NCBI RefSeq assembly: GCF_025989125.1
Contig: NZ_JAPDNR010000001.1
Coordinates: 3,523,953 to 3,587,952, forward strand
DNA from: Chitinophaga nivalis
GTDB lineage: Bacteria > Bacteroidota > Bacteroidia > Chitinophagales > Chitinophagaceae
DNA length: 64,000 nt
Reading direction: 5' to 3'
Both the position numbers and the translations under genes were made by a program. Of the stretch, positions 6,106-48,665 are shown piece after piece. Numbering within the stretch: position 1 is the first letter of the stretch; each line of letters begins with the position of its first letter. The notes under the pieces were generated by a model that saw only the letters and a list, made by a program, of their open reading frames with translations, was not told the DNA's origin and made no database searches.

Positions 6106-6123
6106 TCAACCAAACCTGGTGCT

Positions 6124-7545: not shown

Positions 7546-7573
7546 CGGATGTAATCAACCAAATCAACTTAGC

Positions 7574-8266: not shown

Positions 8267-8295
8267 TGCTCATCTTTTACTTTAACCAGCTAGAT

Positions 8296-9723: not shown

Positions 9724-9731
9724 ACAGCATT

Positions 9732-18248: not shown

Positions 18249-18322
18249 AGTACGACGTGTTTTTATTGCCTTACAAACTTAGGAGGCACACGCCGGAAAA
18301 GTGGTGTAAAAACGCGACAGTT

Positions 18323-32950: not shown

Positions 32951-33387
32951 TTGGGTGTTGTTGTTTATGTGAGTGGTTTAGGTGGCCGACAGCCAGGTAC
33001 AGGCACAGCAAGGCATGCTGATAAGTTCCGCGATGTCAGGCAAAAAGATTACATGTCTGTATTCAGGCAGTGGGGGGAGAAGTATTGTAGTTGGTAGCGA
33101 TAAAAGTAGTAAGTTGGTTGCCGGAGCAATGATCTGAGTCCATTTGATGTAATGAATTACGGTGTAAAAGTGATAATAATTTTTTATCTGTCAAAATATA
33201 TTTAGGAAGATAATTATACAGGAAAAGTTGCCGGCGTCATTTTGATTTTTGGAAAAACATGTTATATTGAGGCAGTTTTATCTGCATTTTTAGCGCTAAA
33301 TCGATTTAATTATGCTGTAATCAACCAAACAATCTTTATATTTGTCGAGGCTAAAACGATTTAGCGTAAGCACTTTTTAATCTATTT

Positions 33388-34266: not shown

Positions 34267-34294
34267 TTATCTTTTCAGCAGACGATAAAAAAAA

Positions 34295-34329
34295 GACAGC
34301 AGCGGTATCATATCGCTGCTGTCTTTTTT
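34295..34329. terminator. Bidirectional Rho-independent terminator
   Basis: AAAAAAAA-GACAGCAGCG-GTATCATAT-CGCTGCTGTC-TTTTTT, with A-tract and T-tract flanks, between the convergent ROK kinase and M90 peptidase genes. Confidence 0.65.
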
Positions 34330-34359
34330 AGTTATATTGTTGCCGGATGCATCGCTGTC

Positions 34360-35130
34360 TCATATCGGCTTTTGCCGGAATATCTTAGTGAGCATCTCAT
34401 ACAATTCCGGATGATTTTCTGCCAGCAGATCGGGCCGCTCAAAGAAGTATTCTGAGATGACGGCAAAGAACTCCGCCTGGCTGGTAGCCCCGTAGGGATT
34501 AATATCCGTATGTCCTTCATACATCTGCTGAATGGTTTTGTGTACGAGCTGCATCCATGGAATACTGTAACTGTGCTCCATCAGTTTGGTAGGCATACCG
34601 TCAATAACACCATCGGTTTTGTCCAGCAGGTGTACAAATTCATGAATGGCCGTATTGCTTTTATCGGTTACATTGGCAAAACCTTCCCGCAGTGCATTGC
34701 GGGAAAGAATCATCTGCCCGTGCAAAGCACCACTGCCTACCATCCCCAGGATGTTGCGCTGATTACCTTCAAACTGGTATGTTTCGTTGAACGTATCCGG
34801 ATACAGGATCACATTGGTGAGATTAAAGTACTCCCAGTCTTTGAATCCAAAGATGGGAATGATAGCACTGGCGGCTACCAATGTACGGTCCAGCGGTTCT
34901 ACCAGCGTACCTACGCCTTCAATATGTGTTCTTTTCAAAAAACGTTGTACCATTTGCTGAAAGCGCAGCTTGTCGGTATCGCTCAGCTGCTGGTAATAAC
35001 GTACATGTGTCTGCAACAGCTCCCGGTATTCTTCCGGCACAGCTGACCGCTTCAGCCGGCGGCGGATATACAGGTTTTTAAAATATAAAAACAGAATCAA
35101 TCCGATCGCTATCAATCCAAATAAAACCAT
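34360..35130 (-). CDS. Zinc-dependent peptidase, M90 (MtfA-like) family, N-terminally membrane-anchored
   Basis: The N-terminal TM helix is MVLFGLIAIGLILFLYF. The HExxH-like motif AIHEFVHLLD is typical of M90/MtfA. Confidence 0.7.
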   Translation of the reverse strand: MVLFGLIAIGLILFLYFKNLYIRRRLKRSAVPEEYRELLQTHVRYYQQLSDTDKLRFQQMVQRFLKRTHIEGVGTLVEPLDRTLVAASAIIPIFGFKDWEYFNLTNVILYPDTFNETYQFEGNQRNILGMVGSGALHGQMILSRNALREGFANVTDKSNTAIHEFVHLLDKTDGVIDGMPTKLMEHSYSIPWMQLVHKTIQQMYEGHTDINPYGATSQAEFFAVISEYFFERPDLLAENHPELYEMLTKIFRQKPI

Positions 35131-35141
35131 CTTACAAAAAA

Positions 35142-36761
35142 TTATTTCCGGTAAATTTTAAACTCTGAACCAGGTTTCCATTTGGGAAAACTTTGTTCAT
35201 TGCTTAACCGGTAGCCTACTTCAAATAATAAACGTACATCTTCTACCATACCATCCATCACCCAGGTAGCCGGATCGAATTCGTCTTTAGGGGAGTGGTA
35301 ACGTAAACGGTTATACGTGGCAATCTGTTCTTTTCCCCAGCCGGCAGCTTTACCGGTAACCTGGGTACCCGGGCCGATATACAGGCCAGGCACGCCTTTT
35401 TTGGCAAAGTTAAAATGGTCGGAGCGGAAGAACCAGCCACCTTCCGGATTGGCCTCCGGTACAACGATCCTGTTTTGTTTGGCCGCTGCCTGTTGCGCAT
35501 AGGCGTCCAGTTCAGACTGGCCATAGCCGATAACGGTAATGTCTTTGGTCCGGCCAAAAGTATTCATCACATCCAGGTTAATATCTGCTACCGTTTTTTC
35601 ATGACGGAATACCGGATGCGCAGCATAATATTCGGACCCCAGCAAGCCTTGTTCTTCCCCGGTGACAGAGAGGAACAGTACGGAACGGGCGGGCTTTTGC
35701 GGCAGCCGGGTGAAAGCAGTGGCCAGTTCCAGTAAACCGGCAGTGCCACTGGCATTGTCTACGGCGCCGTTGTAAATAGAGTCGCCATTAACGGGCTCGC
35801 CTATCCCAAAGTGATCCCAATGTGCTGAATATACAACGCATTCCTGCGGACGGAGTGCACCTGGTAAAATGGCCAGCACGTTGTGGGAGGTCGATTTTTT
35901 AATGGTATTGTTCAGCACCACGGAGGTTTGCAGGTGCAGGTCTACCGGCCGGAAACCTTTGGTCCGGGCCTTTTCCATGATGTCTGGCGACACCCCGGCC
36001 AGTTGAAAGATTTTGTTGGCCGCATCCCGGGTAATCCAGCCTTCCAGGGCGGTACGATGCTGGTTGTTGTCTGGTGTCTGCAGGTGCAGTTTGGAATTAG
36101 ACCAGCCGCTGCGTACTACTTTCCAGGGATAGCTGGCAGGCGCTGTTTCGTGGATGATGATCACGCCGGTAGCGCCCTGGCGGGAAGCTTCTTCAAATTT
36201 ATAGGTCCACCGGCCGTAATAGGTCATGGTGCGGCCTTTGAACAGGGTACTGTCGGAAAAACCAGGATCATTGATGAGTACCACCACCGTTTTACCTTTT
36301 ACATCCAGTCCGGCATAGTCGTTCCAGTTATATTCCGGCGCCACAATGCCGTAGCCGGCAAATACCAGTGGCGACTGATCAATGCGCACCTGTTCCTGTA
36401 CCCGGCGGGTCGCCGCTACAAAATCATCCAGGTATTGCAGCGATACTTCCCCGCCTGCACCTTTGATAACCAGGTTGCCGGCAGGCCGGGAACCGATGGA
36501 TACCATGGGTACCTGCTGAAAATAACTATTGCCGTTGCCGGGTTTTAATCCCAGTTGTTTAAACTGAGCAGCCAGGTATTGGATGGTGCTGTCTTCTCCT
36601 CTTGTAAAGGGTTTTCTGCCTTCAAAGGCATCAGACGCCAGCACCCGGATACGGGCGGCAAAGCTCTCCGCATGGATGGCTTTTATAGCCGTGGAGTCCT
36701 GGGCTTGTAATCCCTGCAGCAGGAGAGAGCCTAGAAAAGTGAGTATACTGATTCGTTTCAA
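35142..36761 (-). CDS. M28-family secreted aminopeptidase with a PA domain
   Basis: It has a signal peptide and M28 zinc ligands (…HWDHFG…, …DNASG…, …GEEQGLLGS…, …H…). Confidence 0.85.
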   Translation of the reverse strand: MKRISILTFLGSLLLQGLQAQDSTAIKAIHAESFAARIRVLASDAFEGRKPFTRGEDSTIQYLAAQFKQLGLKPGNGNSYFQQVPMVSIGSRPAGNLVIKGAGGEVSLQYLDDFVAATRRVQEQVRIDQSPLVFAGYGIVAPEYNWNDYAGLDVKGKTVVVLINDPGFSDSTLFKGRTMTYYGRWTYKFEEASRQGATGVIIIHETAPASYPWKVVRSGWSNSKLHLQTPDNNQHRTALEGWITRDAANKIFQLAGVSPDIMEKARTKGFRPVDLHLQTSVVLNNTIKKSTSHNVLAILPGALRPQECVVYSAHWDHFGIGEPVNGDSIYNGAVDNASGTAGLLELATAFTRLPQKPARSVLFLSVTGEEQGLLGSEYYAAHPVFRHEKTVADINLDVMNTFGRTKDITVIGYGQSELDAYAQQAAAKQNRIVVPEANPEGGWFFRSDHFNFAKKGVPGLYIGPGTQVTGKAAGWGKEQIATYNRLRYHSPKDEFDPATWVMDGMVEDVRLLFEVGYRLSNEQSFPKWKPGSEFKIYRK

Positions 36762-36983
36762 TTTGACTTAGGTTTAGATTCAAACTAAAATTACAGAAAG
36801 AATTAAGAATTCCACGGGATAAAGCCGGCGTACCTGCTACCGGCACTTATTGCTTAATTATTAATACACCTGGACCCCAAAAAGGGTACCTATAGGTTAA
36901 AATCCGTGCATAATTGATTAATTCCAGTAGCATGGCATAGGGGAGGGCCGCCTATTTTTGTTGACATAAAAACAGAGAGGAAA

Positions 36984-37907
36984 ATGGTACAATTCAGCTG
37001 GCAAGGCGTATTTCCCGCATTGCTGACGCCTTTTACAGGCGATGATCATATTGATTATGATATGTTTGACAGGAACCTGGCTGCACAGGTATCCGCTGGT
37101 GCAAGTGGTATTATCCTGGGCGGTACGCTGGGAGAAGCCAGCAGTTTGTTAAATGAAGAAAAGTACGCGCTGGTAAGACATAGTGTGGCCCGCCTGGAAG
37201 GTAAGCTGCCGGTGATCATGAACATTGCGGAACAAACTACTGCCGCGGCCATCGCCAACGCTAAAGAAGCGGAGAAAGCCGGTGCTTCCGGTCTGATGTT
37301 ATTACCCCCCATGCGCTATAAGGCAGATGATGCCGAAACCGTTGCCTATTTTCTGGCTGTAGCCAATAATACTTCCCTGCCGATAATGATCTACAATAAT
37401 CCGGTAGACTATAAAATACTGGTGACCCTCGATATGTTCGAAGCACTGGCAGCAGCGCCGAATATACAGGCAGTGAAAGAATCCACCCGCGATATTACCA
37501 ACGTTACCCGTATGATTAACCGCTTCGGGGATCGCTTCCATATTTTAACCGGCGTAGATACGCTGGCGTTGGAAAGCCTGCTGATGGGCGCCCAGGGTTG
37601 GGTAGCTGGTCTGGTAGATGCTTTCCCCCGCGAAACAGTAGCTATTTTCCGGTTGGCCAAAGCGGGCCGTGTTGCGGAAGCAGTAGCCATCTACCGTTGG
37701 TTTATGCCATTACTCGAACTGGATATCGACGCTAAACTGGTACAGTATATCAAACTGGCTGCTACCGCTACCGGTATCGGCAGTGCTACGGTGAGAGCAC
37801 CTCGTCTGGAACTGGCAGGAGCAGAACTGGACAGGGTAACTAAAATCATACAGGATGCACTGGCTAAACGCCCGGCATTACCCGAATACTTAAATCTGCC
37901 AGGATGA
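36984..37907 (+). CDS. Dihydrodipicolinate synthase-family lyase, probable 1-pyrroline-4-hydroxy-2-carboxylate deaminase
   Basis: DHDPS/NAL fold (GVFPALLTPF, GASGIILGGTLGEASSL, the Lys-containing IMIYNNP region). Its neighbours are an ALDH, a 4-Hyp epimerase and an FAD D-amino-acid oxidase-type enzyme. Confidence 0.75.
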   Translation: MVQFSWQGVFPALLTPFTGDDHIDYDMFDRNLAAQVSAGASGIILGGTLGEASSLLNEEKYALVRHSVARLEGKLPVIMNIAEQTTAAAIANAKEAEKAGASGLMLLPPMRYKADDAETVAYFLAVANNTSLPIMIYNNPVDYKILVTLDMFEALAAAPNIQAVKESTRDITNVTRMINRFGDRFHILTGVDTLALESLLMGAQGWVAGLVDAFPRETVAIFRLAKAGRVAEAVAIYRWFMPLLELDIDAKLVQYIKLAATATGIGSATVRAPRLELAGAELDRVTKIIQDALAKRPALPEYLNLPG

Positions 37908-39493
37908 AAATAACAGGAGAAAATATTATAGGTTATACTACCTCCGCTACGGGGCTGGAAGTATTACGTGCATACGATCCCGTGAGTAATACCCAGCTGG
38001 CGGAAACATTTACCATTGCAACCGCCACGGAAGTAAACAGGGCGGTGGAAAAAGCGGCTACCGCTTTCCGCACCTACCGGCATACCACGCCGGCAGACCG
38101 GGCCACCTTTCTGGAAGCTATTGCAACGGAGATCATGAATATGGGGGATCTGCTGCCAGCGAGAGCGGTAGCTGAATCCGGCCTGCCGCTGGCACGTATT
38201 ACCGGCGAACGTGGTCGTACTATCGCTCAGTTGCAGCTGTTTGCCACCGTGCTGCGCGAAGGTTCGTGGGTGCAGGCGGTTATCGATCCGGCGCAGGCAA
38301 CAACACCTGTGCCCAAAGCAGATATCCGTAAAATGCTGGTGCCCCTGGGGCCCGTACTGGTATTCCCGGCCAGCAATTTCCCGCTCGCCTTCTCTACCGC
38401 AGGTGGAGATACCGCCGCTGCCCTGGCAGCCGGCAACCCGGTGATTGTAAAGGCGCACGCCTCTCACCTGGGTACCAACGAACTCATTGCCCGAGCCATA
38501 CAAAAAGCCGCGCAGCAGTGCGGTATGCCGGATGGTGTGTTTTCCAGTCTGACAGGTTCCGGTGCCGCACTGGGCCAGCAGCTGGTGAAACACCCCGGTA
38601 TTAAAGCCATTGGCTTTACCGGCTCCTATAAAGCCGGTATGGCCATTTTCGATGCCGTGAACCAACGTCCGGAGCCTGTTCCCGTGTATGCGGAAATGGG
38701 GAGCATCAATCCGGTGCTGCTGTTGCCAGGTAAGCTGGCGGCCGAAGCCACAACGGTGGCGCAGCAATATGCGGCGTCCATTACCCAGGGAGTAGGTCAG
38801 TTTTGTACCAGTCCCGGACTATTGCTGGCGCTGGAAGGTCCTGGCACCGAAGCATTTGCCGATAGACTGCAACAAGAACTGGCAACAGTGCCGGCAGCTA
38901 CCATGCTGAATCAGGGCATCTGTTATCACTATTACGAAAACCGGGAACAGCTGGCCCGCGGAGAAGGGGTAGAAACCCTGTTCGCCGGTGATTCAGGACT
39001 GGAGGCTACCAAAGGTTCACCGGCCTTGTACCGTGTCAGCGGCAGCCGGTTCTTGCAACAGGCAGCCTTGCAACAGGAAGTATTCGGCCCTGCCTCCTTA
39101 TTGGTGGTATGTAAGGATACAGCAGAACTGGTGGAGGTACTGACCTCCTTGCACGGCCAGCTCACAGGCTCGGTGATGGGATTGCAGGAAGACCTGGATA
39201 CCTACAGCCAGTTGATACCGCTGCTGGCGGAAAAAGCCGGCAGAATCATTTTCAACCAGGTGCCTACCGGGGTGGAAGTAGGCTATGCCATGCATCATGG
39301 CGGCCCATTCCCGGCAACAACCGATATCCGCAGCACCTCCGTAGGGGCGTCGGCGATAGATCGTTTTGCCAGACCCCTGTGTTTCCAGAACTGGCCGCAG
39401 AACCTGTTGCCGGATGCATTGAAAGATCACAACCCTTTAGGTATCTGGCGGCGTATTAAAGGAACACTTACTCAGGACGCAGTTCATCCATAA
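37904..39493 (+). CDS. Aldehyde dehydrogenase, probable alpha-ketoglutarate semialdehyde dehydrogenase
   Basis: 529 aa of the ALDH superfamily (GNPVIVKAHASH...; the catalytic Cys region FCTSPGLLL). Its start overlaps the upstream stop in an ATGA arrangement. Confidence 0.8.
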   Translation: MKITGENIIGYTTSATGLEVLRAYDPVSNTQLAETFTIATATEVNRAVEKAATAFRTYRHTTPADRATFLEAIATEIMNMGDLLPARAVAESGLPLARITGERGRTIAQLQLFATVLREGSWVQAVIDPAQATTPVPKADIRKMLVPLGPVLVFPASNFPLAFSTAGGDTAAALAAGNPVIVKAHASHLGTNELIARAIQKAAQQCGMPDGVFSSLTGSGAALGQQLVKHPGIKAIGFTGSYKAGMAIFDAVNQRPEPVPVYAEMGSINPVLLLPGKLAAEATTVAQQYAASITQGVGQFCTSPGLLLALEGPGTEAFADRLQQELATVPAATMLNQGICYHYYENREQLARGEGVETLFAGDSGLEATKGSPALYRVSGSRFLQQAALQQEVFGPASLLVVCKDTAELVEVLTSLHGQLTGSVMGLQEDLDTYSQLIPLLAEKAGRIIFNQVPTGVEVGYAMHHGGPFPATTDIRSTSVGASAIDRFARPLCFQNWPQNLLPDALKDHNPLGIWRRIKGTLTQDAVHP

Positions 39494-39518
39494 GGTTTTA
39501 CTATTTATTTTTTAGCAG

Positions 39519-40520
39519 ATGTCCACCAAAACTTTTTTTTGTATAGATGCCCACACCTGTGGTAATCCGGTAAGGCTGGTCGCCGGCGGCGGTCCTGTGC
39601 TGAAAGGAAACAGCATGATGGAAAGACGCCTGCACTTTCTGGCAGAATATGACTGGATCAGAAAAGGGTTGATGTTTGAACCCAGAGGACACGATATGAT
39701 GAGTGGCAGTATCCTCTATCCACCCGTTGATGAAGCCAATGACACAGGTGTATTATATATCGAAACCAGTGGTTGCCTGCCGATGTGCGGACATGGTACC
39801 ATCGGCACCGTCACTATTGCAATTGAACAAGGGCTTATTACCCCCAAAATACCAGGTCAGTTAAGGTTGGAAACACCGGCTGGCCTGGTGCTTATAAATT
39901 ACGTACAGGAAGGTAAGAAAGTGAAATCAGTAAAACTGACAAACGTAAAATCCTTCCTGGCAGCAGAAAATCTATCTGTAGAATGCCCGGACCTGGGTAC
40001 GCTGCAGGTAGATGTTTCCTATGGCGGCAATTTTTACGCCATCGTAGATCCGCAGGAAAATTTTCCTGGCCTGGAACACTATACTGCCGGGCAACTGGTA
40101 ACCTGGAGCCGGGAATTACGTAAACGGCTAAACGAAAATTACACCTTCGTACATCCGGAAAATGAACATATCAAAGGACTGAGCCATATTTTATGGACCG
40201 GTACCCCGCTGAATCCGGAGGCAACGGCCCGCAACGCCGTGTTTTACGGCGATAAGGCCATCGACCGCTCTCCCTGTGGTACCGGCACTTCCGCCAGGAT
40301 GGCGCAGTGGTATGCGAAAGGTAAACTGAAAGCCGGCGATCGTTTTATTCATGAAAGTATCATTGGCTCTGCCTTTACCGGCACGATAGAAGCAACGGCT
40401 ACTGTCGCCGGCAAACCCGCTATTGTACCGGGTATCGAAGGTTGGGCAATGGTAACAGGATACAATACGATTCTGCTGGACGATGCCGATCCATATGTAC
40501 ACGGGTTTCAGGTAATATAA
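39519..40520 (+). CDS. 4-hydroxyproline 2-epimerase (proline racemase family)
   Basis: 333 aa with both catalytic Cys motifs (…SGCLPMCGHGTIG… and …DRSPCGTGTSARMA…) characteristic of proline racemase/4-Hyp epimerase. Confidence 0.85.
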   Translation: MSTKTFFCIDAHTCGNPVRLVAGGGPVLKGNSMMERRLHFLAEYDWIRKGLMFEPRGHDMMSGSILYPPVDEANDTGVLYIETSGCLPMCGHGTIGTVTIAIEQGLITPKIPGQLRLETPAGLVLINYVQEGKKVKSVKLTNVKSFLAAENLSVECPDLGTLQVDVSYGGNFYAIVDPQENFPGLEHYTAGQLVTWSRELRKRLNENYTFVHPENEHIKGLSHILWTGTPLNPEATARNAVFYGDKAIDRSPCGTGTSARMAQWYAKGKLKAGDRFIHESIIGSAFTGTIEATATVAGKPAIVPGIEGWAMVTGYNTILLDDADPYVHGFQVI

Positions 40521-40566
40521 ATCAACGGAAACTATTTCCGTACTATTCATCATTCGTAATTGTAAA

Positions 40567-41811
40567 ATGAATACAACCATTATAGGAGGCGGTATTATTG
40601 GTCTTTGTGCAGCCTACTACCTGCAGGAAAGCGGGTGGAAGGTAACGGTTATGGATACCGGTGATTTCCGGCAGAACTGTTCCTATGGCAACATGGGCAT
40701 GATTGTGCCCAGTCATTTTGTGCCGCTGGCTGCGCCGGGTATTATTTCACAGGGCATTCGCTGGATGTTCAACGGCAGGAGTCCTTTTTATGTAAAACCA
40801 GCATTGAACAGACAGCTAATAAGCTGGGGCCTGCAGTTTATCAAAAATGCCAATGCTGCACACGTGGCCGCATCAGCGGTGCCCTTGCGGGATCTCAACC
40901 TCCTCAGCCGCCATCTGTATGAACAGCTGGCGAAACAGCCGGGCTTTGGTTTCGGATTGGAACGTAAGGGCATTATCATGTATTACAAAACAGCTGCCGT
41001 TGGGGAAGAAGAGGCCCATCTTGCGGAAAAGGCCGCCGCTATGGGGCTGGATGCTGCGGTATTGAACCGGGCAGACTTACAGGCACTGGAACCACAAATA
41101 GAGATGGATGTACTGGGCGGTGTGCATTACCGATGTGACGCTCACCTGAGCCCGCATGAACTGATGCCGCAACTGATTACACACCTGCAAAGAAAAGGCG
41201 TACAGTTTCTGCCAAATACAAAAGTAACAGGTATTAAAACGGCACAGGGAAAAATAAAAACCGTGATGGCCGGTACAACAGCCTATGAGTCGGATCTCTT
41301 TGTGCTGGCAGCAGGTTCCTGGACACCGGAAGTAGCGCAGCTGGCCGGCATCCGTATTCCTATGATGCCAGGGAAAGGATATTCTGTAACGCTGGATGCA
41401 CCGAAATTAAATTTAAATATTCCGGCCATTTTATGTGAAGCCAGGGTAGCCCTTACACCTATGCGGCAGCAGCTGCGTTATGGTGGTACCATGGAAGTGG
41501 CCGCCGTCAATGATCGCATCAATATGAACCGGGTAGCGGGTATCGTTGATTCTGTACAGCAATATTTTCCGAACCTGCCGGTAACCATGCCGGAAAAGGA
41601 AGCAGTATGGAGTGGATGCAGACCTTGCTCTCCCGACGGATTACCTTTTATCGGATATTCGCAACAATATAGTAATTTGCTGCTCGCCGGAGGACATGCA
41701 ATGATGGGATTAAGTCTGGGACCTGCTACCGGAAAGTTGCTGGCGCAACTGGCCGGTCAACAGCCTACCAGCGTGAGTTTGAAAGCTTTCTCCCCGGCAC
41801 GGTTTCGTTGA
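40567..41811 (+). CDS. FAD-dependent oxidoreductase (DadA/D-hydroxyproline dehydrogenase-like)
   Basis: The N-terminal FAD Rossmann motif is MNTTIIGGGIIGLCAAYYL, and the protein has the DAO fold. Its context is the Hyp catabolic cluster. Confidence 0.8.
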   Translation: MNTTIIGGGIIGLCAAYYLQESGWKVTVMDTGDFRQNCSYGNMGMIVPSHFVPLAAPGIISQGIRWMFNGRSPFYVKPALNRQLISWGLQFIKNANAAHVAASAVPLRDLNLLSRHLYEQLAKQPGFGFGLERKGIIMYYKTAAVGEEEAHLAEKAAAMGLDAAVLNRADLQALEPQIEMDVLGGVHYRCDAHLSPHELMPQLITHLQRKGVQFLPNTKVTGIKTAQGKIKTVMAGTTAYESDLFVLAAGSWTPEVAQLAGIRIPMMPGKGYSVTLDAPKLNLNIPAILCEARVALTPMRQQLRYGGTMEVAAVNDRINMNRVAGIVDSVQQYFPNLPVTMPEKEAVWSGCRPCSPDGLPFIGYSQQYSNLLLAGGHAMMGLSLGPATGKLLAQLAGQQPTSVSLKAFSPARFR

Positions 41812-41935
41812 GGTTATTAGCTGTTGGTATTGGGCTACTAGCCGTTTCTTATAAGTGACTACACCTATGAATTCACCTGTGCATGTATAAGAAATAATGA
41901 TGTAAATCAACCAATCACTGATAACAGTAAGCCAG

Positions 41936-42571
41936 ATGCTAAAAGCAAAATGTTCCGCAGAATATGGTGCCCGTGAAGAAAAAGACTATGCCGTTTTCTG
42001 GCACGAGATGCAACAGGATAATGAACAGGGTTTGTATAAAATATACCACGAGGTGTATGATAACCTGTACCATTACGGTGTGTCGGTAGTGCTGGATAAG
42101 GCTATGGTCAAAGAAGCCATCAACGATGTGTTTGTGGAGATCTGGCGGAAAAGACAGCAGCTGGAAATGCCGGATAACATCAACGGATATCTTTTTATCT
42201 GTTTTAAACGCCGGTTGTATAAAATTCTCAGTAAACACAACAAGACAGCCAGCCAGGAAGACAGCCTGCTCTTTATAGAGCCGGAGGAGCGGCCGTACGA
42301 GGAAATACTGATCCGGCAGGAAACGGATCAGCAGGTGAAGCAAAAGCTGGAACGTATGCTGGACCTGCTCACCTGGCGACAGAAAGAATTTATCCGCCTG
42401 CGGTTTTATGATAATTTAAGTATAGAAGAGATAGCCGCTAAAACAGCGGCTACTCCGCGTACTATTTACAATACCATTCACAATGCCCTGGTACGTATCC
42501 GGGAAGTATATACAGATGCCTCTTTCATTGCGCTGCTACTGCTTTTGGTAGATATGGAAAAAAATTCCTGA
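41936..42571 (+). CDS. ECF-type RNA polymerase sigma factor
   Basis: 211 aa with region 2 (…YHYGVSVV…FVEIW) and region 4 (LTWRQKEFIRLRFYDNLSIEEIAAKTAATPRTIYNTIHNAL). Confidence 0.8.
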   Translation: MLKAKCSAEYGAREEKDYAVFWHEMQQDNEQGLYKIYHEVYDNLYHYGVSVVLDKAMVKEAINDVFVEIWRKRQQLEMPDNINGYLFICFKRRLYKILSKHNKTASQEDSLLFIEPEERPYEEILIRQETDQQVKQKLERMLDLLTWRQKEFIRLRFYDNLSIEEIAAKTAATPRTIYNTIHNALVRIREVYTDASFIALLLLLVDMEKNS

Positions 42572-42614
42572 AAAATTTGGTAAAAGAACAGACACCCCGG
42601 CCTCTTTATTAAAA

Positions 42615-43646
42615 ATGGCCGGTATGGACTTACAGCAGTATAAGGCAGAAGATTTTATTTTAAACGATTCCTTTGTGCGTTATTGTTTACGCACGAACGA
42701 TGCTGATGTACAGTTCTGGGAAAGCTGGCTGAATAAACATCCGCATAAACAGGCCGAAGCAGCCAAAGCACAAAGCTGGTTGTTTAAGCTGAATCTCCGT
42801 CTTACACCCGAAGAAAAAACAGCCGCTTTCCTCGAATTACAAACGGCTATTGCCACCGAAAACAATCTTACTCCCATTATCCCTATACCACGTACCCGCA
42901 ACCGGAAACGATTATTGCGTATAGCCGCTGCGGTTACCCTGCTGCTGGGCGCGGCGGCAGGTAGTTTTTTCCTGCGTCATGCTCCCCGTCCCATAGCTGC
43001 TGCCTATACCATATACCAGGCAGGCGACAGCATGCGCCGGCACATTCAGCTGCCGGATGGTTCAGCCGTTTTACTGAACGCCCGCAGCACCCTGAAAGTT
43101 CCTGCTACTTATAATGCCGGACAACGTCAGCTGGAACTGAATGGGGAAGCACTGTTTGAGGTAGCCGCGGCCGCAGGCCAGCCATTTATTGTATCCTCCG
43201 GTAACCTGCATATACAGGCACTGGGAACGGCCTTTAAAGTCCGGGCTTACACCTTTGATACCACGATGGCCGTATCGCTGCTGAATGGCCGCGTACAGGT
43301 GGCACAGGCGGGCGACAGTATGTTATTATTGCCGGGCGAACAGATAACGACCCGTAAAGAAGGCGCTGCATTTGATAAACACACTTTTGATATAAACAGG
43401 GAAACAGCCTGGCGTAGCGGCCGGTTGTCTTTTGATAAAGCTACGCTGGCCGAAGTAGCACATACACTGGAGTACTGGTATGGCGTAAAAGTAGTGGTGC
43501 AACCGGGGAAATATAAGCCCATACGGTTTAACGGCACCTTCACCAACAAAACACTGCAGGAAGTATTAACAGCCATCTGTTTTGTAAACGGACTTTCAAC
43601 CACGGAAAAAAATGACACACTGTATATACAATCAACCAAACATTAG
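42615..43646 (+). CDS. FecR-family anti-sigma factor / transmembrane sensor
   Basis: 343 aa with a TM segment (LLRIAAAVTLLLGAAAGSFFL) and a FecR domain (IQLPDGSAVLLNARSTL...GEALFEV...). Confidence 0.8.
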   Translation: MAGMDLQQYKAEDFILNDSFVRYCLRTNDADVQFWESWLNKHPHKQAEAAKAQSWLFKLNLRLTPEEKTAAFLELQTAIATENNLTPIIPIPRTRNRKRLLRIAAAVTLLLGAAAGSFFLRHAPRPIAAAYTIYQAGDSMRRHIQLPDGSAVLLNARSTLKVPATYNAGQRQLELNGEALFEVAAAAGQPFIVSSGNLHIQALGTAFKVRAYTFDTTMAVSLLNGRVQVAQAGDSMLLLPGEQITTRKEGAAFDKHTFDINRETAWRSGRLSFDKATLAEVAHTLEYWYGVKVVVQPGKYKPIRFNGTFTNKTLQEVLTAICFVNGLSTTEKNDTLYIQSTKH

Positions 43647-43666
43647 GTAAAGTTAAATCAACCGTT

Positions 43667-46600
43667 ATGAAAAGAATATCCCTTATGGGGGCATGCTTCG
43701 CCGTGCTCTTATCATTCCTTTTGTTAAGCTGGGTGCAGGTGGCAGAAGGGTTGAAAGATAAAATCGACGTAGGTTTCAGACAAACCAAAGTATTGCAGGT
43801 ATTACAATACCTGGAAAAAAATACCCGGCTGAAATTTTCTTACAACCTGGATGACCTGGAACAATTAAAACCACTCACCATCGACAAAAAAGAACGTACC
43901 GTGGAAACCCTGTTACAGGAAATCAGCCACATTACTACGTTACAGTTTAAAATTACAGATGAAATCATCCTGGTAAAGGTACCATCGGCCATCGTTACAA
44001 CACAGCAGCCGGCAGCACCACAACAGGAAAAACCGGTAACCGGTGTGATACAATCTGCCACCGGTGAAAAATTGCCAGGTGTAAGCGTGAAAGTAAAAGG
44101 TAGCACCAAAGGCGTACTTACAGATGCCTCCGGTGCTTTCCGGTTTACAGACCTGCCGAAAGATGCCATACTCGAAATCTCCTTCATTGGCTTCAATAGC
44201 CAGGAAGTAGCCGTGAACGGACAATCCGTGTTGTCTGTTACGCTGGAAACATCTACCAAAGTACTGGATCAGGTAGTGGTAGTAGGTTATGGCACACAAA
44301 GCAAACGGAATGTCAGCAGTGCCATTACCTCTGTAAAAGGTAGTGAAATTGCGAATGTACCCAGCAACAACCCGGTAAATGCCCTGCAAGGTAGGGTAGC
44401 GGGTTTAACAGTCGTAAACTCAGGTGGCGCACCAGGTGCGATGGCAGATATCAAATTAAGAGGTGTCAGCACTTTTGGAGAACATCAGCCTTTGTTTGTG
44501 ATAGACGGGGTACCGGGTGATCCTTATTACCTGAATAATAATGACATTGCTTCCATTGAAGTGCTGAAAGATGGGGCGGCAGCTTCTATCTACGGTTCCC
44601 AGAGTGCCAACGGTGTTATCCTGGTTACTACCAAAAAAGGGAAAAAAGGCGCACCTAAAATGGAGTTCAACAGCTATTACAGCGTGGTGAATCCCGTAGG
44701 CAAAATGCACCTGCTCGATGGAGAAGGATACCTGAAAGTACACCGCATGATGTACGATAATGCACCAGACATAGATCCTTCTGAAAAACCGGCTTATTTA
44801 ACGCAACCGGTTACAGCCAACACCAACTGGCGCGACGAGGTAACACAGCAGGGAAGTGCAGAAAACTACAGCCTGAACGTAACTGGCGGCGGCGAGTATT
44901 TTAACTATGGCCTGAGTGGTAATATCACCAAAGAAATAGGTACCATGATCGGTACTGATTTCCGCAAGAAATCATTACGTGCCCGGAACGAATATAAAAA
45001 AGGCCGCCTCACGATAGAAACCAACCTGGTATATGCAGAAACACAGCTCCGCGAAATGCGTTTCAGCCTGAAAGATGCTTATTTCCAATCACCTTTGTTA
45101 CCGGTGTATGATAGCAAAGAGAAGTACGGATACGCCCTGCAGATCAATGAATTGCCTAAGTTTCAGAATCCGGTAGGCGCTAGTTTTTATAACGACAACT
45201 ACAACAAAACACAGTATTTCAGCGGGAATGCCCGGATGTCGGTACAGCTGATCAAAGGCATGAAGTTCGTGACCAACCTGAGTCTGGCCAACAGCAACAG
45301 CTTTGATTACGCTTATCATCCGCCATACCGTGCCAATCAGAATGATCCGGTACAACCTTTCGCCCGTTTAACAGACGGCCGTACCAACAGACGTGAACGC
45401 CTGATGGAAAACCTGTTGTACTACGACCGGAGTTTTGGTAAACATAGCCTCAACCTGCTGGCGGGTTATACTGCACAGGAAATTATCCGTAACCGGGTAA
45501 TTACCATTGCAGACGGAAAATCCAATGTATACACAGTAAAGAACGGACAAGTAGATATTTCCGAAGTACCGGGTGGTTTCCTGGATCCTAATTTTACCAC
45601 CATGGACGGTGCTAAAGGAGGTTTGTTCAATGCTACCGGCTCCCGGCCGCAATACAACCGCCTGTCTACACTGGGCCGTGTTAACTATTCCTACGATAAC
45701 AAATACCTGGTGCAATTGTCGGTACGCCGCGACGGTTCTTCCAAATTCGGTGAAAACCGCCGCTATGGTGTATTCCCTTCTGCATCCGTAGGCTGGAATA
45801 TGCACAGCGAAAGCTTTATGCAGCGCTTTACCTGGCTGGATTTACTGAAAGTACGTGCCAGCTATGGTGAGTTAGGTAATGAAATTTCCCTGAAAGAGTA
45901 CGATCACCAGGCATTGATTGATATCTATAACTATATGGGTGGTGGCTCCGTACAGGGCGGTGGTACCGTATGGCCCGGTGGTGCTGCATGGGAACTGAAA
46001 AATAAAGACCTGCGCTGGGAAACAAGTGTATCTAAAAATATCGGGATCGACTTTGGTGTGTTGAAAAACCTCACCGGTTCCTTTAACTATTTTAACAACG
46101 TAACCAATGATCTGCTGATCCGGAAAGAACTGGCGCCAAGTGCCGGATTAAATAATCCGGTGATGAACGTAGGCCGTATCAGTAATAAAGGCTGGGAACT
46201 GGAATTAACCTATAGCGATCATCATAAAGATTTTAATTATAGTGTAACCGGTACCGTTAGTCAGGTGAAAAATAAGGTGCTGGCACTGGCCAACGAAGGA
46301 CAAAAAATAAACGGTGTTGGATTGAAATACGGCAGCGGCCCCATTCCTAATACCACCATGGTAGGTACAGAAATAGGTGCTTTCTATCTCTATACAGCAG
46401 ATGGCATTTTCCAGTCTGACGAAGAAGCTGCCAACTATAAAAATGCGAATGGTGTTGCTTACCAGCCGGATGCCAAAGCAGGAGATATCCGTTTTATAGA
46501 CAGCAATGGAGATGGTATTATCAATGCTAAGGATAAAACCTATAAAGGCAGCGGGTTCCCTAAACTCGAATATGGCCTGAATATGAATTTCAGCTACAAA

Positions 46601-47053
46601 GGTTTCGACCTCCAGTTATTCTGGCAAGGTGTTGCCGGCAACAAAATCTATAATGGTAATAAATACGAACAACAGGGCATGGATGCAGGCCGCAACTTTG
46701 ATGTAAGTACCCTGCGTGCCTGGACACCAGACAATCGCAATACAGACGTACCACGTGCGGTATTGGGTGATCCGAATGGTAATACCCGCGAATCTACCCG
46801 CTTCCTGGAAAAAGGCGATTACCTGCGCCTGAAAACCCTGCAGCTGGGCTATGCCTTTGCGCCACATTTACTGCAAAGAGCCAGCATCAACCGGTTGAGG
46901 ATCTACGCCAGCGCACAGAACCTGCTCACCTTCACAAAGTATTCCGGTATGGATCCGGAAGTAGGTCGCGCGGAAGTATTGAACACCGGCCTGGACTTAT
47001 GGATGTATCCACAGAATAAAGTGTTTATGGCCGGCCTGCAGCTGGAATTCTAA
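43667..47053 (+). CDS. susC: SusC/RagA-family TonB-linked outer membrane transporter with an N-terminal STN signalling domain
   Basis: 1128 aa. It has an STN-like domain (…KVLQVLQYLEKNTRLKFSYN…ETLLQEISHITTLQFKITDEIILV), a plug (DGVPGDP…LKDGAAASIYGSQSANGVILVTT) and a barrel ending ...AGLQLEF. Confidence 0.9.
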   Translation: MKRISLMGACFAVLLSFLLLSWVQVAEGLKDKIDVGFRQTKVLQVLQYLEKNTRLKFSYNLDDLEQLKPLTIDKKERTVETLLQEISHITTLQFKITDEIILVKVPSAIVTTQQPAAPQQEKPVTGVIQSATGEKLPGVSVKVKGSTKGVLTDASGAFRFTDLPKDAILEISFIGFNSQEVAVNGQSVLSVTLETSTKVLDQVVVVGYGTQSKRNVSSAITSVKGSEIANVPSNNPVNALQGRVAGLTVVNSGGAPGAMADIKLRGVSTFGEHQPLFVIDGVPGDPYYLNNNDIASIEVLKDGAAASIYGSQSANGVILVTTKKGKKGAPKMEFNSYYSVVNPVGKMHLLDGEGYLKVHRMMYDNAPDIDPSEKPAYLTQPVTANTNWRDEVTQQGSAENYSLNVTGGGEYFNYGLSGNITKEIGTMIGTDFRKKSLRARNEYKKGRLTIETNLVYAETQLREMRFSLKDAYFQSPLLPVYDSKEKYGYALQINELPKFQNPVGASFYNDNYNKTQYFSGNARMSVQLIKGMKFVTNLSLANSNSFDYAYHPPYRANQNDPVQPFARLTDGRTNRRERLMENLLYYDRSFGKHSLNLLAGYTAQEIIRNRVITIADGKSNVYTVKNGQVDISEVPGGFLDPNFTTMDGAKGGLFNATGSRPQYNRLSTLGRVNYSYDNKYLVQLSVRRDGSSKFGENRRYGVFPSASVGWNMHSESFMQRFTWLDLLKVRASYGELGNEISLKEYDHQALIDIYNYMGGGSVQGGGTVWPGGAAWELKNKDLRWETSVSKNIGIDFGVLKNLTGSFNYFNNVTNDLLIRKELAPSAGLNNPVMNVGRISNKGWELELTYSDHHKDFNYSVTGTVSQVKNKVLALANEGQKINGVGLKYGSGPIPNTTMVGTEIGAFYLYTADGIFQSDEEAANYKNANGVAYQPDAKAGDIRFIDSNGDGIINAKDKTYKGSGFPKLEYGLNMNFSYKGFDLQLFWQGVAGNKIYNGNKYEQQGMDAGRNFDVSTLRAWTPDNRNTDVPRAVLGDPNGNTRESTRFLEKGDYLRLKTLQLGYAFAPHLLQRASINRLRIYASAQNLLTFTKYSGMDPEVGRAEVLNTGLDLWMYPQNKVFMAGLQLEF

Positions 47054-47074
47054 GCGTATTTACTATTCAAAAAA

Positions 47075-48610: not shown

Positions 48611-48616
48611 TCATTT

Positions 48617-48655
48617 ATCCTGCCGGTAAGCACGGCTGCCGGCAGGATGTTTTAT
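48617..48655 (+). terminator. Hairpin (10-bp stem) with a short U-tract between susD and the GH2 gene; a possible intra-operon attenuator
   Basis: ATCCTGCCGG-(11 nt)-CCGGCAGGAT followed by GTTTTA. It lies in the 55-bp spacer. Confidence 0.45.
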
Positions 48656-48665
48656 ACAGGCAACC

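What the first reader, a model, noticed from the sequence alone, without database searches (positions are those of the whole stretch)
34360..41811. Complete four-gene hydroxyproline degradation cluster preceded by two peptidases and sharing a boundary with the candidate hydroxylysine-glycoside locus
The four genes are a DHDPS-family deaminase (36984..37907), an alpha-ketoglutarate-semialdehyde-type ALDH (37904..39493, ATGA-coupled to the deaminase), a 4-hydroxyproline 2-epimerase (39519..40520) and an FAD D-amino-acid dehydrogenase-like enzyme (40567..41811). Together they form the established trans-4-hydroxy-L-proline to alpha-ketoglutarate route. Divergently transcribed from them are an M28 aminopeptidase and an M90 peptidase. 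A KgtP-like alpha-ketoglutarate-type permease (56722..58005) lies at the far side. Hydroxyproline and glycosylated hydroxylysine are both hallmark components of collagen and plant/algal hydroxyproline-rich glycoproteins. Their juxtaposition supports a dedicated collagen or HRGP peptide-scavenging region.
Basis: partly seen in the sequence, partly recalled or inferred. Interest (0 to 1): 0.55.

Follow-up and report, generated by a model that had tools for sequence, protein, structure and literature searches.

The report
Ordinary hydroxyproline-degradation operon in Chitinophaga
This is a standard four-gene operon that lets a soil Chitinophaga turn hydroxyproline (from collagen or plant cell-wall proteins) into 2-oxoglutarate; it is widespread in its phylum, and its position next to a possible collagen-sugar locus varies between close relatives.

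Summary
All six ORFs lie exactly where stated, the family assignments are right and the ATGA overlap is real. The window comes from Chitinophaga nivalis.

- **Epimerase:** it passes NCBI's 4-hydroxyproline epimerase model. It has both catalytic Cys plus the Ser and His that distinguish Hyp epimerases from proline racemases. It is 67% identical to S. meliloti HypRE.
- **ALDH:** 46% identical to S. meliloti HypH.
- **DHDPS homologue:** it keeps the Schiff-base Lys but lacks DapA's Tyr107 and Arg138.
- **Synteny:** the same gene order occurs in 51 of 65 informative Bacteroidota loci.

The wider claims are only partly supported. The M28/M90 pair is adjacent only in one Chitinophaga subclade. The neighbouring SusCD/GH2/GH63/kinase-lyase block is a 14 kb indel in the DAO–rpiA spacer. 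It is there in four Chitinophaga species, missing there in three, and elsewhere in the genome in C. eiseniae. No Hyp transporter or regulator is linked here.

Verdict: a new member of a known kind, of low interest in itself. The neighbouring locus is the more interesting object.

The parts
34289..34329 (.). Long G+C-rich hairpin (19-bp stem) with T/A runs on both sides. It is a bidirectional terminator-like site between the ROK gene (+) and the M90 gene (-), and marks the left end of the M28-M90 unit.
   Evidence: Only sub-threshold chance Rfam hits fall on it.
34360..35130 (-). M90 (MtfA-like) zinc metallopeptidase, 256 aa. It has an N-terminal hydrophobic anchor (MVLFGLIAIGLILFLYF) followed by a basic stretch, and an HEFVH motif at residue 163.
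   Evidence: Pfam PF06167, E 7e-68. PDB 3DL1 and MtfA 9SRW. Motif position.
35142..36761 (-). M28 aminopeptidase with a weak PA-domain match, 539 aa. It has a signal-peptide-like N-terminus (MKRISILTFLGSLLLQGLQAQ) and the metal-ligand motifs HWDH (314), DNASG (335) and GEEQG (368).
   Evidence: Pfam PF04389, E 2e-46; PA domain below cutoff. Nearest structures are Vibrio/Aeromonas leucyl aminopeptidases, E 1e-11. Motif positions.
36762..36983 (.). Divergent 222-bp intergenic region. A Bacteroidetes-type -7 box (TAnnTTTG; here TATTTTTG) lies at 36953-36960, 24 nt before the DHDPS ATG.
   Evidence: Sequence read. The motif list shows no further + strand copy inside the operon after 37061. The motif is not enriched window-wide (42 found, 46 expected), so this is positional evidence only.
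36984..37907 (+). DHDPS-family enzyme, 307 aa. Inferred to be delta1-pyrroline-4-hydroxy-2-carboxylate (Pyr4H2C) deaminase, the LhpC/HypD role. Thr48, Tyr137 and the Schiff-base Lys165 are conserved. DapA Tyr107 is Arg111 here and DapA Arg138 is Asp142.
   Evidence: Pfam. Scores 165 bits against TIGR00674 dapA, cutoff 206. Alignment A1 with E. coli DapA and S. meliloti HypD. 71-73% homologues are named Pyr4H2C deaminase by JGI. Found next to the epimerase in 66 of 80 loci.
37904..39493 (+). ALDH, 529 aa. Inferred to be 2-oxoglutarate semialdehyde dehydrogenase, the LhpD/HypH role. Catalytic Glu264 and Cys301 are present. The start overlaps the DHDPS stop (ATGA).
   Evidence: Pfam. PDB 3V4C (identical over the printed stretch to the ALDH ORF of the S. 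meliloti pSymB hyp cluster), E 1e-126, and 1EYY. 46% identity to that gene by tblastn. Overlap read. Residue positions.
39519..40520 (+). 4-hydroxyproline 2-epimerase, 333 aa, proline racemase superfamily, Cys/Cys type. Key residues are Cys90, Cys253, Ser62 (in place of the ProR Phe) and His223 (in place of the ProR Cys/Leu).
   Evidence: NF010578 equivalog 602 bits, cutoff 376. Alignment to T. cruzi ProR. Discriminating residues defined in PMC1964878. 67% identity to S. meliloti HypRE. Residue positions.
40567..41811 (+). FAD-dependent DAO/DadA-like oxidoreductase, 414 aa. Inferred to be cis-4-hydroxy-D-proline dehydrogenase/oxidase, the LhpB/HypO role. It has an N-terminal GGGIIG dinucleotide-binding motif.
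   Evidence: Pfam PF01266, E 1e-69. DadA subfamily model 250 bits, below cutoff 383. 26% identity to S. meliloti HypO. Follows the epimerase in most related loci.
41812..56042 (+). 14.2-kb indel block. It is a neighbouring locus, not part of the Hyp operon. It holds an ECF sigma, FecR, SusC, SusD, a GH2 beta-galactosidase, a GH63 YgjK-like alpha-glucosidase and an APH-kinase::phospho-lyase fusion. It occupies the DAO-rpiA spacer.
   Evidence: Homology to C. hostae and sp. RAB17 stops at 41754-41759 and resumes at 56042. Families. No repeats at the junctions.
56055..58005 (.). rpiA (56055..56756, +) and the convergent KgtP-like MFS gene (56722..58005, -). These are the ancestral right-hand neighbours of the Hyp operon.
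   Evidence: In L002, L003 and L086 the order is DAO-rpiA-MFS with no block in between. NCBIfam hit.

Best explanation
Genes 36984..41811 form one operon of Chitinophaga nivalis for the aerobic catabolism of trans-4-hydroxy-L-proline.

**Proposed steps**
1. The Cys/Cys epimerase (39519..40520) converts t4-L-Hyp to cis-4-hydroxy-D-proline.
2. The DadA-like flavoenzyme (40567..41811) oxidises that to delta1-pyrroline-4-hydroxy-2-carboxylate.
3. The DHDPS-family enzyme (36984..37907) deaminates and dehydrates it, through a Lys165 Schiff base, to 2-oxoglutarate semialdehyde.
4. The ALDH (37904..39493) oxidises that to 2-oxoglutarate.

**What is shown**
- The family memberships and catalytic residues.
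- The closeness of two enzymes to the genetically defined S. meliloti hyp genes.
- The phylum-wide conservation of the gene order.

**What is inferred**
- The substrates of the DHDPS and DAO members (from context only).
- Single-transcript organisation (from the 4-bp overlap, the 25- and 46-bp gaps, and one -7 box upstream).
- The source of the Hyp.

**The flanks**
The M28 and M90 peptidases and the adjacent SusCD locus are lineage-specific neighbours. They may supply Hyp-containing peptides, but they are not parts of the conserved unit.
For: **ORFs and families:**

**Epimerase**
- NF010578 '4-hydroxyproline epimerase' scores 602 bits against a cutoff of 376. The proline racemase model (309 vs 556) and the t3Hyp dehydratase models (270 vs 540; 213 vs 550) all fail their cutoffs.
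- The MCGH and DRSPCGTG motifs are both present. Ser replaces TcPRAC Phe102 and His replaces Cys270 (alignment; criteria from PMC1964878 and PMC4364671; positions).
- It is 67% identical to the pSymB gene next to hypO. That gene is called HypRE in PMC6608401.

**ALDH**
- 46% identity, E 4e-120, to the pSymB hyp-cluster ALDH. That protein is identical over the printed stretch to PDB 3V4C.
- Catalytic Glu264 and Cys301 are present.

**DHDPS member**
- Lys165, Tyr137 and Thr48 are kept, while DapA Tyr107 and Arg138 are lost.
- It scores below the dapA cutoff.
- Homologues at 71-73% identity are named Pyr4H2C deaminase by JGI.

**Synteny**
- 51 of 65 loci with enough flank have DHDPS-ALDH-epimerase-DAO in this order, and 47 of them within 6.5 kb. 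They span Chitinophaga, Dyadobacter, Mucilaginibacter, Chryseobacterium, Pontibacter and Saprospiraceae.
- This is the same logic that was validated experimentally in PMC4113996.

**Operon signals:**
Against: - The DHDPS member is only 28-31% identical to S. meliloti HypD, hardly more than to E. coli DapA at 25%.
- The DAO member is only 26% identical to HypO. Both roles therefore rest on context.
- The third Goytia discriminator (an 'XLA' block after the DRSPCGTG motif) is not met. This protein has QWY, which resembles ProR's TLY.
- No transporter or regulator is linked, so uptake and induction are unexplained.
- No terminator-like site follows the DAO gene, so read-through into the ECF sigma gene cannot be excluded.
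- There are no experimental data for any Bacteroidota member in the papers I could search.
Confidence: 0.85

Rival explanations
1. The whole stretch is one dedicated collagen-glycopeptide utilisation island. It would comprise the M90 and M28 peptidases, the Hyp operon, and the ECF/FecR/SusCD/GH2/GH63/hydroxylysine-kinase-lyase block. SusCD would import glycosylated collagen peptides, GH63 and GH2 would strip Glc-Gal from hydroxylysine, the peptidases would release Hyp and Hyl, and both amino acids would be burnt to 2-oxoglutarate. The parts would be co-regulated.
For: - The block directly follows the DAO gene in C. nivalis, C. vietnamensis and C. niastensis, where the ECF gene starts 5 nt after the DAO stop. 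In C. flava it sits before rpiA-MFS as in the window; that locus did not reach back to the Hyp operon.
- The window has no terminator-like site after DAO, whereas relatives without the block carry a long palindrome there.
- This clade lacks the AraC regulator that usually flanks the operon.
- The block's aminotransferase domain matches human ethanolamine-phosphate phospho-lyase at E 3e-143.
- In Flavobacterium anhuiense the fusion sits with GH63, GH42, an ALDH, HglS and a D-2-hydroxyglutarate-dehydrogenase-like gene. That fits hydroxylysine degradation.
- A comparable collagen cluster with Hyp genes, peptidases and an MFS gene is described in Colwellia.
Against: - The block is absent from the same site in C. 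hostae, sp. RAB17 and C. eiseniae.
- It lies on another contig in C. eiseniae and next to ribosomal protein genes in Solitalea. The two modules therefore work apart.
- M28 and M90 are not Pro/Hyp-specific families and are separated from the operon by another gene in four species.
- In other Bacteroidota the Hyp operon sits with GH127 beta-L-arabinofuranosidases and Xaa-Pro peptidases. That points to plant HRGPs rather than collagen as the common source.
Confidence: 0.3
2. The racemase-family gene is a proline racemase or a trans-3-hydroxyproline dehydratase. The cluster would then serve D-proline or 3-hydroxyproline catabolism rather than 4-hydroxyproline.
For: - The closest solved structures are proline racemases (7PB3 at E 3e-79; T. 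cruzi 1W61).
- The R3 block after the DRSPCGTG motif is ProR-like.
- Some superfamily members are promiscuous (PMC4113996).
Against: - The ProR model (309 vs 556) and the t3Hyp dehydratase models (270 vs 540; 213 vs 550) fail their NCBIfam cutoffs, while the 4-Hyp epimerase model passes.
- The second catalytic residue is Cys253, not Thr.
- Ser62 and His223 replace the ProR-specific Phe and Cys/Leu.
- No Pyr2C reductase (OCD or malate/lactate dehydrogenase-2 family) and no D-proline reductase is nearby.
- A DHDPS and KGSA-dehydrogenase pair is needed only for the 4-Hyp branch.
Confidence: 0.05
3. The DHDPS-ALDH pair is a sugar-acid module, such as a KdgD-type dehydratase with 2-oxoglutarate semialdehyde dehydrogenase for glucarate, galactarate or pentonate catabolism. 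It would only happen to lie beside an epimerase and a D-amino-acid dehydrogenase.
For: - The DHDPS member gives weak hits to 5-dehydro-4-deoxyglucarate dehydratase models (125 and 100 bits).
- The ALDH gives weak hits to GucD and 2,5-dioxovalerate dehydrogenase models.
- KGSA dehydrogenases are shared between these pathways (general knowledge of the Watanabe KGSADH types).
Against: - All of those hits are far below cutoff: 125 vs 278, 100 vs 374, 106 vs 770.
- The four genes stay together in 51 of 65 loci across many families.
- No sugar-acid dehydratase or transporter gene is adjacent.
Confidence: 0.04

Closest known systems
Sinorhizobium meliloti pSymB hyp cluster (hypR, hypD, hypH, hypMNPQ, hypO, hypRE; White et al. 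2012, Chen et al. 2016, cited through PMC6608401 and PMC5144071)
   Same: The same four enzyme families do the same four steps. The epimerase is 67% identical and the ALDH 46% identical to the pSymB genes. Hyp is the growth substrate there.
   Different: - The DHDPS member (28-31%) and the DAO member (26%) belong to other subfamilies.
- The window has no GntR repressor, no ABC transporter, no AcnX (LhpI), no second racemase-family paralogue and no Pyr2C reductase.
- The gene order differs.
Pseudomonas / Azospirillum lhp cluster (LhpA-D; Watanabe et al. 2012 JBC, cited through PMC4113996, PMC5144071 and PMC6608401)
   Same: The pathway logic is the same: epimerase, D-Hyp dehydrogenase, Pyr4H2C deaminase of the DHDPS family, then KGSA dehydrogenase. 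AraC-type control (LhpR) is paralleled by the AraC gene that flanks the operon in 34 of 80 Bacteroidota loci.
   Different: - The Pseudomonas epimerase belongs to a distant branch. PDB 2AZP and 4J9W score only 156-169 bits against this protein, against 270 bits for ProR structures.
- P. aeruginosa uses a three-subunit dehydrogenase.
- The window has no AraC gene.
Proline-racemase-superfamily genome-neighbourhood study (Zhao et al. 2014 eLife, PMC4113996), including the Bacillus cereus-type 4HypE cluster
   Same: That study showed that a racemase-family member with DAAO, DHDPS and ALDH neighbours predicts 4-Hyp epimerase and t4Hyp catabolism. It confirmed this by growth and transcript data. The present locus fits that rule.
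   Different: I could not see the paper's tables, so I cannot say whether any Bacteroidota protein was assayed. Membership of a specific cluster in that paper's network was not determined.
Colwellia collagen-utilisation gene cluster (Borchert et al., bioRxiv 10.1101/2020.05.13.093005)
   Same: Hyp catabolic genes are grouped with peptidases, an MFS transporter and a TonB-dependent receptor, and are read as a collagen-scavenging unit.
   Different: That cluster is built round a secreted M9 collagenase, a prolidase and a PutR regulator. The window has no M9/U32 collagenase and no prolidase adjacent. Only a distant M24 gene at 16986..18248 is present.

Membership tests
4-hydroxyproline 2-epimerase (proline racemase superfamily) | Full-length Pro_racemase fold and a score above the curated equivalog cutoff | tested here: met
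   PF05544 E 6e-133 over residues 8-331. NF010578 scores 602 bits against a cutoff of 376. The ProR and t3Hyp dehydratase models are below their cutoffs.
4-hydroxyproline 2-epimerase (proline racemase superfamily) | Two catalytic cysteines (MCGH and DRSPCGTG motifs) | tested here: met
   Cys90 and Cys253, aligned with T. cruzi ProR Cys130 and Cys300.
4-hydroxyproline 2-epimerase (proline racemase superfamily) | Small or polar residue in place of the ProR Phe (R1), and His in place of the ProR Cys/Leu (R2) (PMC1964878; PMC4364671) | tested here: met
   Ser62 and His223 (alignment; criteria; positions).
4-hydroxyproline 2-epimerase (proline racemase superfamily) | 'XLA' block just after the DRSPCGTGxxAxxA motif (R3, PMC1964878) | tested here: not met
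   The sequence is ARMA-QWY. S. meliloti HypRE has QLA and T. cruzi ProR has TLY. This criterion was derived from a few proteobacterial enzymes, and all other tests are met, so I keep the assignment but note the deviation.
4-hydroxyproline 2-epimerase (proline racemase superfamily) | Epimerisation of t4-L-Hyp to c4-D-Hyp in vitro | not testable with these tools
   An enzyme assay is needed.
Pyr4H2C deaminase (DHDPS family; LhpC/HypD) | DHDPS/class I aldolase fold with the Schiff-base Lys and the conserved Tyr and Thr | tested here: met
   PF00701 E 3e-54. Lys165, Tyr137 and Thr48 align with DapA Lys161, Tyr133 and Thr44.
Pyr4H2C deaminase (DHDPS family; LhpC/HypD) | Close sequence relationship to a biochemically characterised deaminase | tested here: inconclusive
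   28-31% identity to S. meliloti HypD against 25% to E. coli DapA. JGI names 71-73% homologues as this enzyme, but that is an automatic annotation.
Pyr4H2C deaminase (DHDPS family; LhpC/HypD) | Conserved co-location with a 4-Hyp epimerase, a DAO-family oxidoreductase and an ALDH | tested here: met
   51 of 65 informative loci have all four genes in the same order.
True DapA (4-hydroxy-tetrahydrodipicolinate synthase) | Tyr107 of the catalytic triad, Arg138 that binds aspartate semialdehyde, and a score above the TIGR00674 cutoff | tested here: not met
   Tyr107 is Arg111 and Arg138 is Asp142. 165 bits against a cutoff of 206.
2-oxoglutarate semialdehyde dehydrogenase (LhpD/HypH type ALDH) | ALDH fold with catalytic Cys and Glu, and relationship to the hyp-cluster ALDH | tested here: met
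   PF00171. Glu264 and Cys301. 46% identity, E 4e-120, to the pSymB hyp-cluster ALDH, which matches PDB 3V4C. The NCBIfam KGSADH models of other types (GucD, 2,5-dioxovalerate dehydrogenase) are far below cutoff.
cis-4-hydroxy-D-proline dehydrogenase/oxidase (LhpB/HypO; DAO family) | FAD-dependent DAO fold with an N-terminal GxGxxG motif, and relationship to a characterised D-Hyp dehydrogenase | tested here: inconclusive
   The fold and motif are met. Identity to HypO is only 26%, and the DadA subfamily model scores 250 bits against a cutoff of 383. The role is assigned from position in the conserved operon.
Single Hyp-inducible operon | One transcript from 36984 to 41811, induced by Hyp | not testable with these tools
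   Only indirect signs are available: the 4-bp overlap, gaps of 25 and 46 bp, and a -7 box at 36953.

The most novel reading that the evidence does not exclude
In one Chitinophaga subclade the Hyp operon has lost its usual AraC regulator. A relocatable SusCD/GH2/GH63/hydroxylysine-kinase-lyase module has been placed directly downstream of it, and an M28/M90 peptidase pair sits upstream. Together these would form a single co-regulated island for feeding on glycosylated collagen peptides. It would include what would be the first bacterial route for glucosyl-galactosyl-hydroxylysine.
Probability: 0.3. Interest if true: 0.6.

Novelty: new member of a known kind. Interest (0 to 1): 0.2.

Why it matters
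In itself it matters little. It adds one more, uncharacterised, species to a pathway that is well established in Proteobacteria, Bacillus and Streptomyces, and that automatic pipelines already annotate in Bacteroidota.

Three things have some value.
- **Phylum-wide conservation.** The operon is highly conserved across Bacteroidota, with epimerase identity of 73-89%, yet I found no experimental work on any member.
- **Informative neighbours.** They differ by lineage: Xaa-Pro peptidases, DPP4, an amino-acid permease and GH127 beta-L-arabinofuranosidases in many genera, against M28/M90 and a collagen-type glycoside locus in this Chitinophaga clade. This suggests different natural sources of hydroxyproline, namely plant hydroxyproline-rich glycoproteins versus collagen.
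- **A natural experiment.** The presence/absence polymorphism of the neighbouring 14-kb block could be used to test whether the two modules cooperate.

Tried and rejected
- **Reverse comparison with Pseudomonas LhpA-D.** JBC 2012 (PMC3463351) and J Bacteriol 2016 (PMC4800863) are not held. I used the S. meliloti pSymB cluster instead, fetched as raw DNA because PLSDB holds no annotation for it.
- **eLife 2014 tables and supplements.** I wanted to see whether a Bacteroidota racemase-family member (for example D2QN44) was assayed. They are not held.
- **RNA elements.** An Rfam scan of 33000-43000 gave only sub-threshold chance hits on the terminator hairpin.
- **Repeats at the indel junctions.** None were found, so there is no sign of a mobile-element mechanism.
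- **Sigma-70 promoter scan.** Not above shuffled expectation, and not suited to Bacteroidota. The TAnnTTTG motif is not enriched overall, so only its position is suggestive.
- **AraC regulator or APC permease of the kind linked to the operon elsewhere.** Neither is present in the 64-kb window.
- **The KgtP-like MFS as a Hyp importer.** Considered, but there is no evidence beyond conserved proximity in four Chitinophaga species (C. hostae, sp. RAB17, C. eiseniae, C. flava). It is not linked in other genera.
- **Literature on Hyp catabolism in Bacteroidetes.** The search gave nothing specific.

Full report

Yes. The six ORFs are at exactly the stated coordinates. They coincide with the public gene calls of the source contig, GCA_025989205.1 JAPDNS010000002.1. 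The DHDPS protein is 100% identical to a Chitinophaga nivalis entry.

Pfam gives Peptidase_M90, Peptidase_M28, DHDPS, Aldedh, Pro_racemase and DAO, all with E-values of 2e-46 or better. The DHDPS stop and the ALDH start overlap as ATGA at 37904-37907. The gaps ALDH-epimerase and epimerase-DAO are 25 and 46 bp. M28 and the DHDPS gene are divergent across 222 bp.

**2. The epimerase**

- It scores 602 bits on NCBI's equivalog model NF010578, '4-hydroxyproline epimerase', whose cutoff is 376. The proline racemase model (309 against 556) and the two trans-3-hydroxyproline dehydratase models (270 against 540; 213 against 550) all fail their cutoffs.
- Its nearest solved structures are proline racemases. 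The residue pattern, however, is that of a Hyp epimerase.
  - Both catalytic cysteines are present, Cys90 in MCGH and Cys253 in DRSPCGTG.
  - Ser62 replaces the Phe102 that excludes hydroxylated substrates in T. cruzi ProR.
  - His223 replaces Cys270 (alignment; criteria from PMC1964878 and PMC4364671; positions).
- A third published discriminator, an 'XLA' block after the second motif, is not met. The sequence here is QWY.
- I fetched the S. meliloti pSymB hyp region as raw DNA (L082). The window protein is 67% identical to the Cys/Cys gene that follows hypO there. That gene is named HypRE in PMC6608401. It lies next to SMb20269/LhpI (PMC5144071). Its gene number, SMb20268, I infer from that position.

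**3. The other three enzymes**

*ALDH.* It is 46% identical (E 4e-120) to the pSymB hyp-cluster ALDH. That sequence is identical over the printed stretch to PDB 3V4C. Catalytic Glu264 and Cys301 are present.

*DHDPS homologue.* I aligned it with E. coli DapA, taken from NC_000913.3, and with S. meliloti HypD (alignment A1).
- The Schiff-base Lys (Lys165), Tyr137 and Thr48 are conserved.
- DapA Tyr107 is Arg111 here, and DapA Arg138 is Asp142. Arg138 binds aspartate semialdehyde (known DapA biochemistry).
- It scores 165 bits on the dapA model, below the cutoff of 206.
- However, it is only 28-31% identical to HypD. Its role as Pyr4H2C deaminase rests on context and on automatic annotation: JGI gives that name to 71-73% homologues.

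*DAO-family protein.* It has the GGGIIG motif and resembles DadA, at 250 bits against a cutoff of 383. It is only 26% identical to HypO. Its role too is assigned from context.

**4. Conservation**

A scan of one genome per species found at least 596 relatives of the epimerase. The best 80 are 73-89% identical and all appear to come from Bacteroidota. One MAG is labelled Williamsia, which I take to be a binning error.

I mapped the window's proteins onto these loci and counted. Of 65 loci with enough flanking DNA, 51 carry DHDPS-ALDH-epimerase-DAO in this order, and 47 of them within 6.5 kb.

This is the signature that Zhao et al. validated by growth and transcript analysis as predicting t4Hyp catabolism (PMC4113996). 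I conclude with about 0.85 confidence that 36984..41811 is a Hyp to 2-oxoglutarate operon.

Signs of a single transcript are indirect.
- A Bacteroidetes-type -7 box, TATTTTTG, lies 24 nt before the first ATG.
- No further + strand copy occurs in the operon after 37061.
- The gene junctions are tight.

**5. The peptidases**

M28 has a signal-peptide-like N-terminus and the usual metal ligands. Its nearest structures are generic leucyl aminopeptidases, at E 1e-11. M90 is MtfA-like, with an HEFVH motif and an N-terminal membrane anchor. Neither family is Pro/Hyp-specific.

The pair ends at a strong bidirectional hairpin at 34289-34329.

The pair is adjacent to the Hyp operon only in a Chitinophaga subclade: C. 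nivalis, C. vietnamensis, C. hostae, sp. RAB17, C. niastensis and C. eiseniae. In the last four, a ~900-aa PKD/CHU_C gene lies between M28 and the operon. C. pendula and C. skermanii instead have a divergent AraC gene.

**6. What accompanies the operon elsewhere**

I clustered all ORFs of the 80 loci and checked representatives against Pfam. The recurrent neighbours are:
- an AraC/cupin regulator (34 loci);
- DUF885 (16 loci);
- an amino-acid permease (14 loci);
- an Xaa-Pro aminopeptidase of family M24 (14 loci);
- two GH127 beta-L-arabinofuranosidase families (14 and 9 loci);
- DPP4-type S9 peptidases (12 and 7 loci);
- M61 and M43 peptidases (8 loci each).

The general idea that the Hyp operon sits with enzymes that dismantle Pro/Hyp-rich (glyco)proteins is therefore sound. 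In most genera, however, the partners point to plant hydroxyproline-rich glycoproteins. A Rhizobium pRL10 homologue of the DHDPS gene likewise sits by a Xaa-Pro peptidase and a beta-L-arabinofuranosidase transport locus.

The window itself has no AraC gene of this type and no such permease.

**7. The shared boundary**

DNA homology between the window and C. hostae or sp. RAB17 stops at 41754-41759 and resumes at 56042, 13 nt before the rpiA start. In those two species, DAO is followed by a long palindrome and then by rpiA and the KgtP-like MFS gene.

The ECF/FecR/SusC/SusD/GH2/GH63/APH-aminotransferase block is therefore a 14.2-kb indel in the DAO-rpiA spacer. No repeats mark the junctions.

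| Species | State of the block |
|---|---|
| C. nivalis (window) | Present between DAO and rpiA |
| C. vietnamensis | Follows DAO; locus ends within GH2 |
| C. niastensis | Follows DAO; ECF gene starts 5 nt after the DAO stop; locus ends within SusD |
| C. flava | Present before rpiA-MFS; the locus does not reach the Hyp operon |
| C. hostae, sp. RAB17 | Absent from this site |
| C. eiseniae | Absent from this site; the full module lies on another contig |
| Solitalea canadensis | Module lies next to rplU/rpmA |

The two modules are therefore separable. Their juxtaposition is lineage-specific, though it recurs within this genus.

**8. The neighbour itself (outside my finding)**

- Its aminotransferase domain matches human ethanolamine-phosphate phospho-lyase at E 3e-143.
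- Its GH63 enzyme is YgjK-like.
- The C. niastensis orthologue of the fusion is already named 'hydroxylysine kinase / 5-phosphonooxy-L-lysine phospho-lyase' in its NCBI record.
- In Flavobacterium anhuiense the fusion sits with GH63, a GH42 beta-galactosidase, an ALDH, HglS (PF07063), a D-2-hydroxyglutarate-dehydrogenase-like flavoprotein and SusCD. This reads as removal of glucose and galactose, then hydroxylysine to 2-aminoadipate semialdehyde, then the lower lysine pathway to 2-oxoglutarate.
- I found no paper describing such a bacterial locus.

It belongs to the other finding, though.

**9. Comparison with what is known, and verdict**

The closest systems are:
- the S. meliloti hyp cluster;
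- the Pseudomonas/Azospirillum lhp cluster;
- the neighbourhood rule of the eLife study;
- at region level, the Colwellia collagen-utilisation cluster.

The window's operon is a new, uncharacterised member of this known kind. Its epimerase branch is closer to ProR than to the Pseudomonas enzymes. Its DHDPS and DAO partners belong to subfamilies that, as far as I could see, have not been assayed.

Interest is low, at 0.2. The most novel reading still open is a co-regulated collagen-glycopeptide island in this Chitinophaga clade. I give that about 0.3 probability.

Noticed in passing
window 41936-56036; L089, L090, L091, L092: The neighbouring block (FecR-SusC-SusD-GH2-GH63-APH::aminotransferase) is a conserved, relocatable module. 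It is found in C. eiseniae, Solitalea and C. flava. In Flavobacterium anhuiense the kinase-lyase fusion clusters with GH63, GH42, an ALDH, HglS and a D-2-hydroxyglutarate-dehydrogenase-like gene. That fits a complete route from Glc-Gal-hydroxylysine to 2-oxoglutarate. I found no paper describing it.
   Followed up: partly
L002 12240-12500; L003 12280-12500: In C. hostae and Chitinophaga sp. RAB17 the DAO-rpiA spacer holds a long, near-perfect palindrome (a strong terminator-like hairpin). In the window this exact position is occupied by the 14-kb block.
   Followed up: partly
L007-L081 (for example L037 2888-4933, L054 5450-7819): GH127 beta-L-arabinofuranosidase genes flank the Hyp operon in about 20 Bacteroidota loci, together with Xaa-Pro aminopeptidase, DPP4, DUF885 and an amino-acid permease. 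This suggests plant hydroxyproline-rich glycoproteins as a common Hyp source.
   Followed up: partly
L083 (Rhizobium johnstonii pRL10, 266768-283646): The closest proteobacterial plasmid homologues of the DHDPS gene (about 48% identity) lie beside a GntR regulator, a Xaa-Pro peptidase and a beta-L-arabinofuranosidase/ABC sugar-uptake locus. There is no epimerase nearby.
   Followed up: no
window 16986-19120 (- strand): An Xaa-Pro aminopeptidase (AMP_N + Peptidase_M24) lies next to an AraC-like regulator (DUF6597 + HTH_18), 18 kb upstream of the Hyp operon. It is only 24% identical to the M24 family that flanks Hyp operons elsewhere.
   Followed up: no
L046, L049, L053, L061 (Chitinophaga sp. 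YR627, C. oryziterrae, sp. CF418, a MAG): Some Chitinophaga carry the epimerase with only a DAO-family gene (44-46% identity) and no adjacent DHDPS or ALDH. This is a different arrangement, or a second locus.
   Followed up: no
L029 (JADCRZ010000073.1): A contig labelled 'Williamsia sp.' (Actinomycetota) carries a 78%-identical Bacteroidota-type epimerase with DHDPS and DAO genes. It is probably a binning error in that MAG.
   Followed up: no
window 1573-10853: A second FecR/SusC/SusD-type locus, by size and order of the ORFs, is followed by DUF4843, a PKD-like protein and a thioredoxin/AhpC-TSA lipoprotein gene. This arrangement is typical of peptide- or glycan-uptake loci in Bacteroidota. 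Only the last three genes were checked against Pfam.
   Followed up: no
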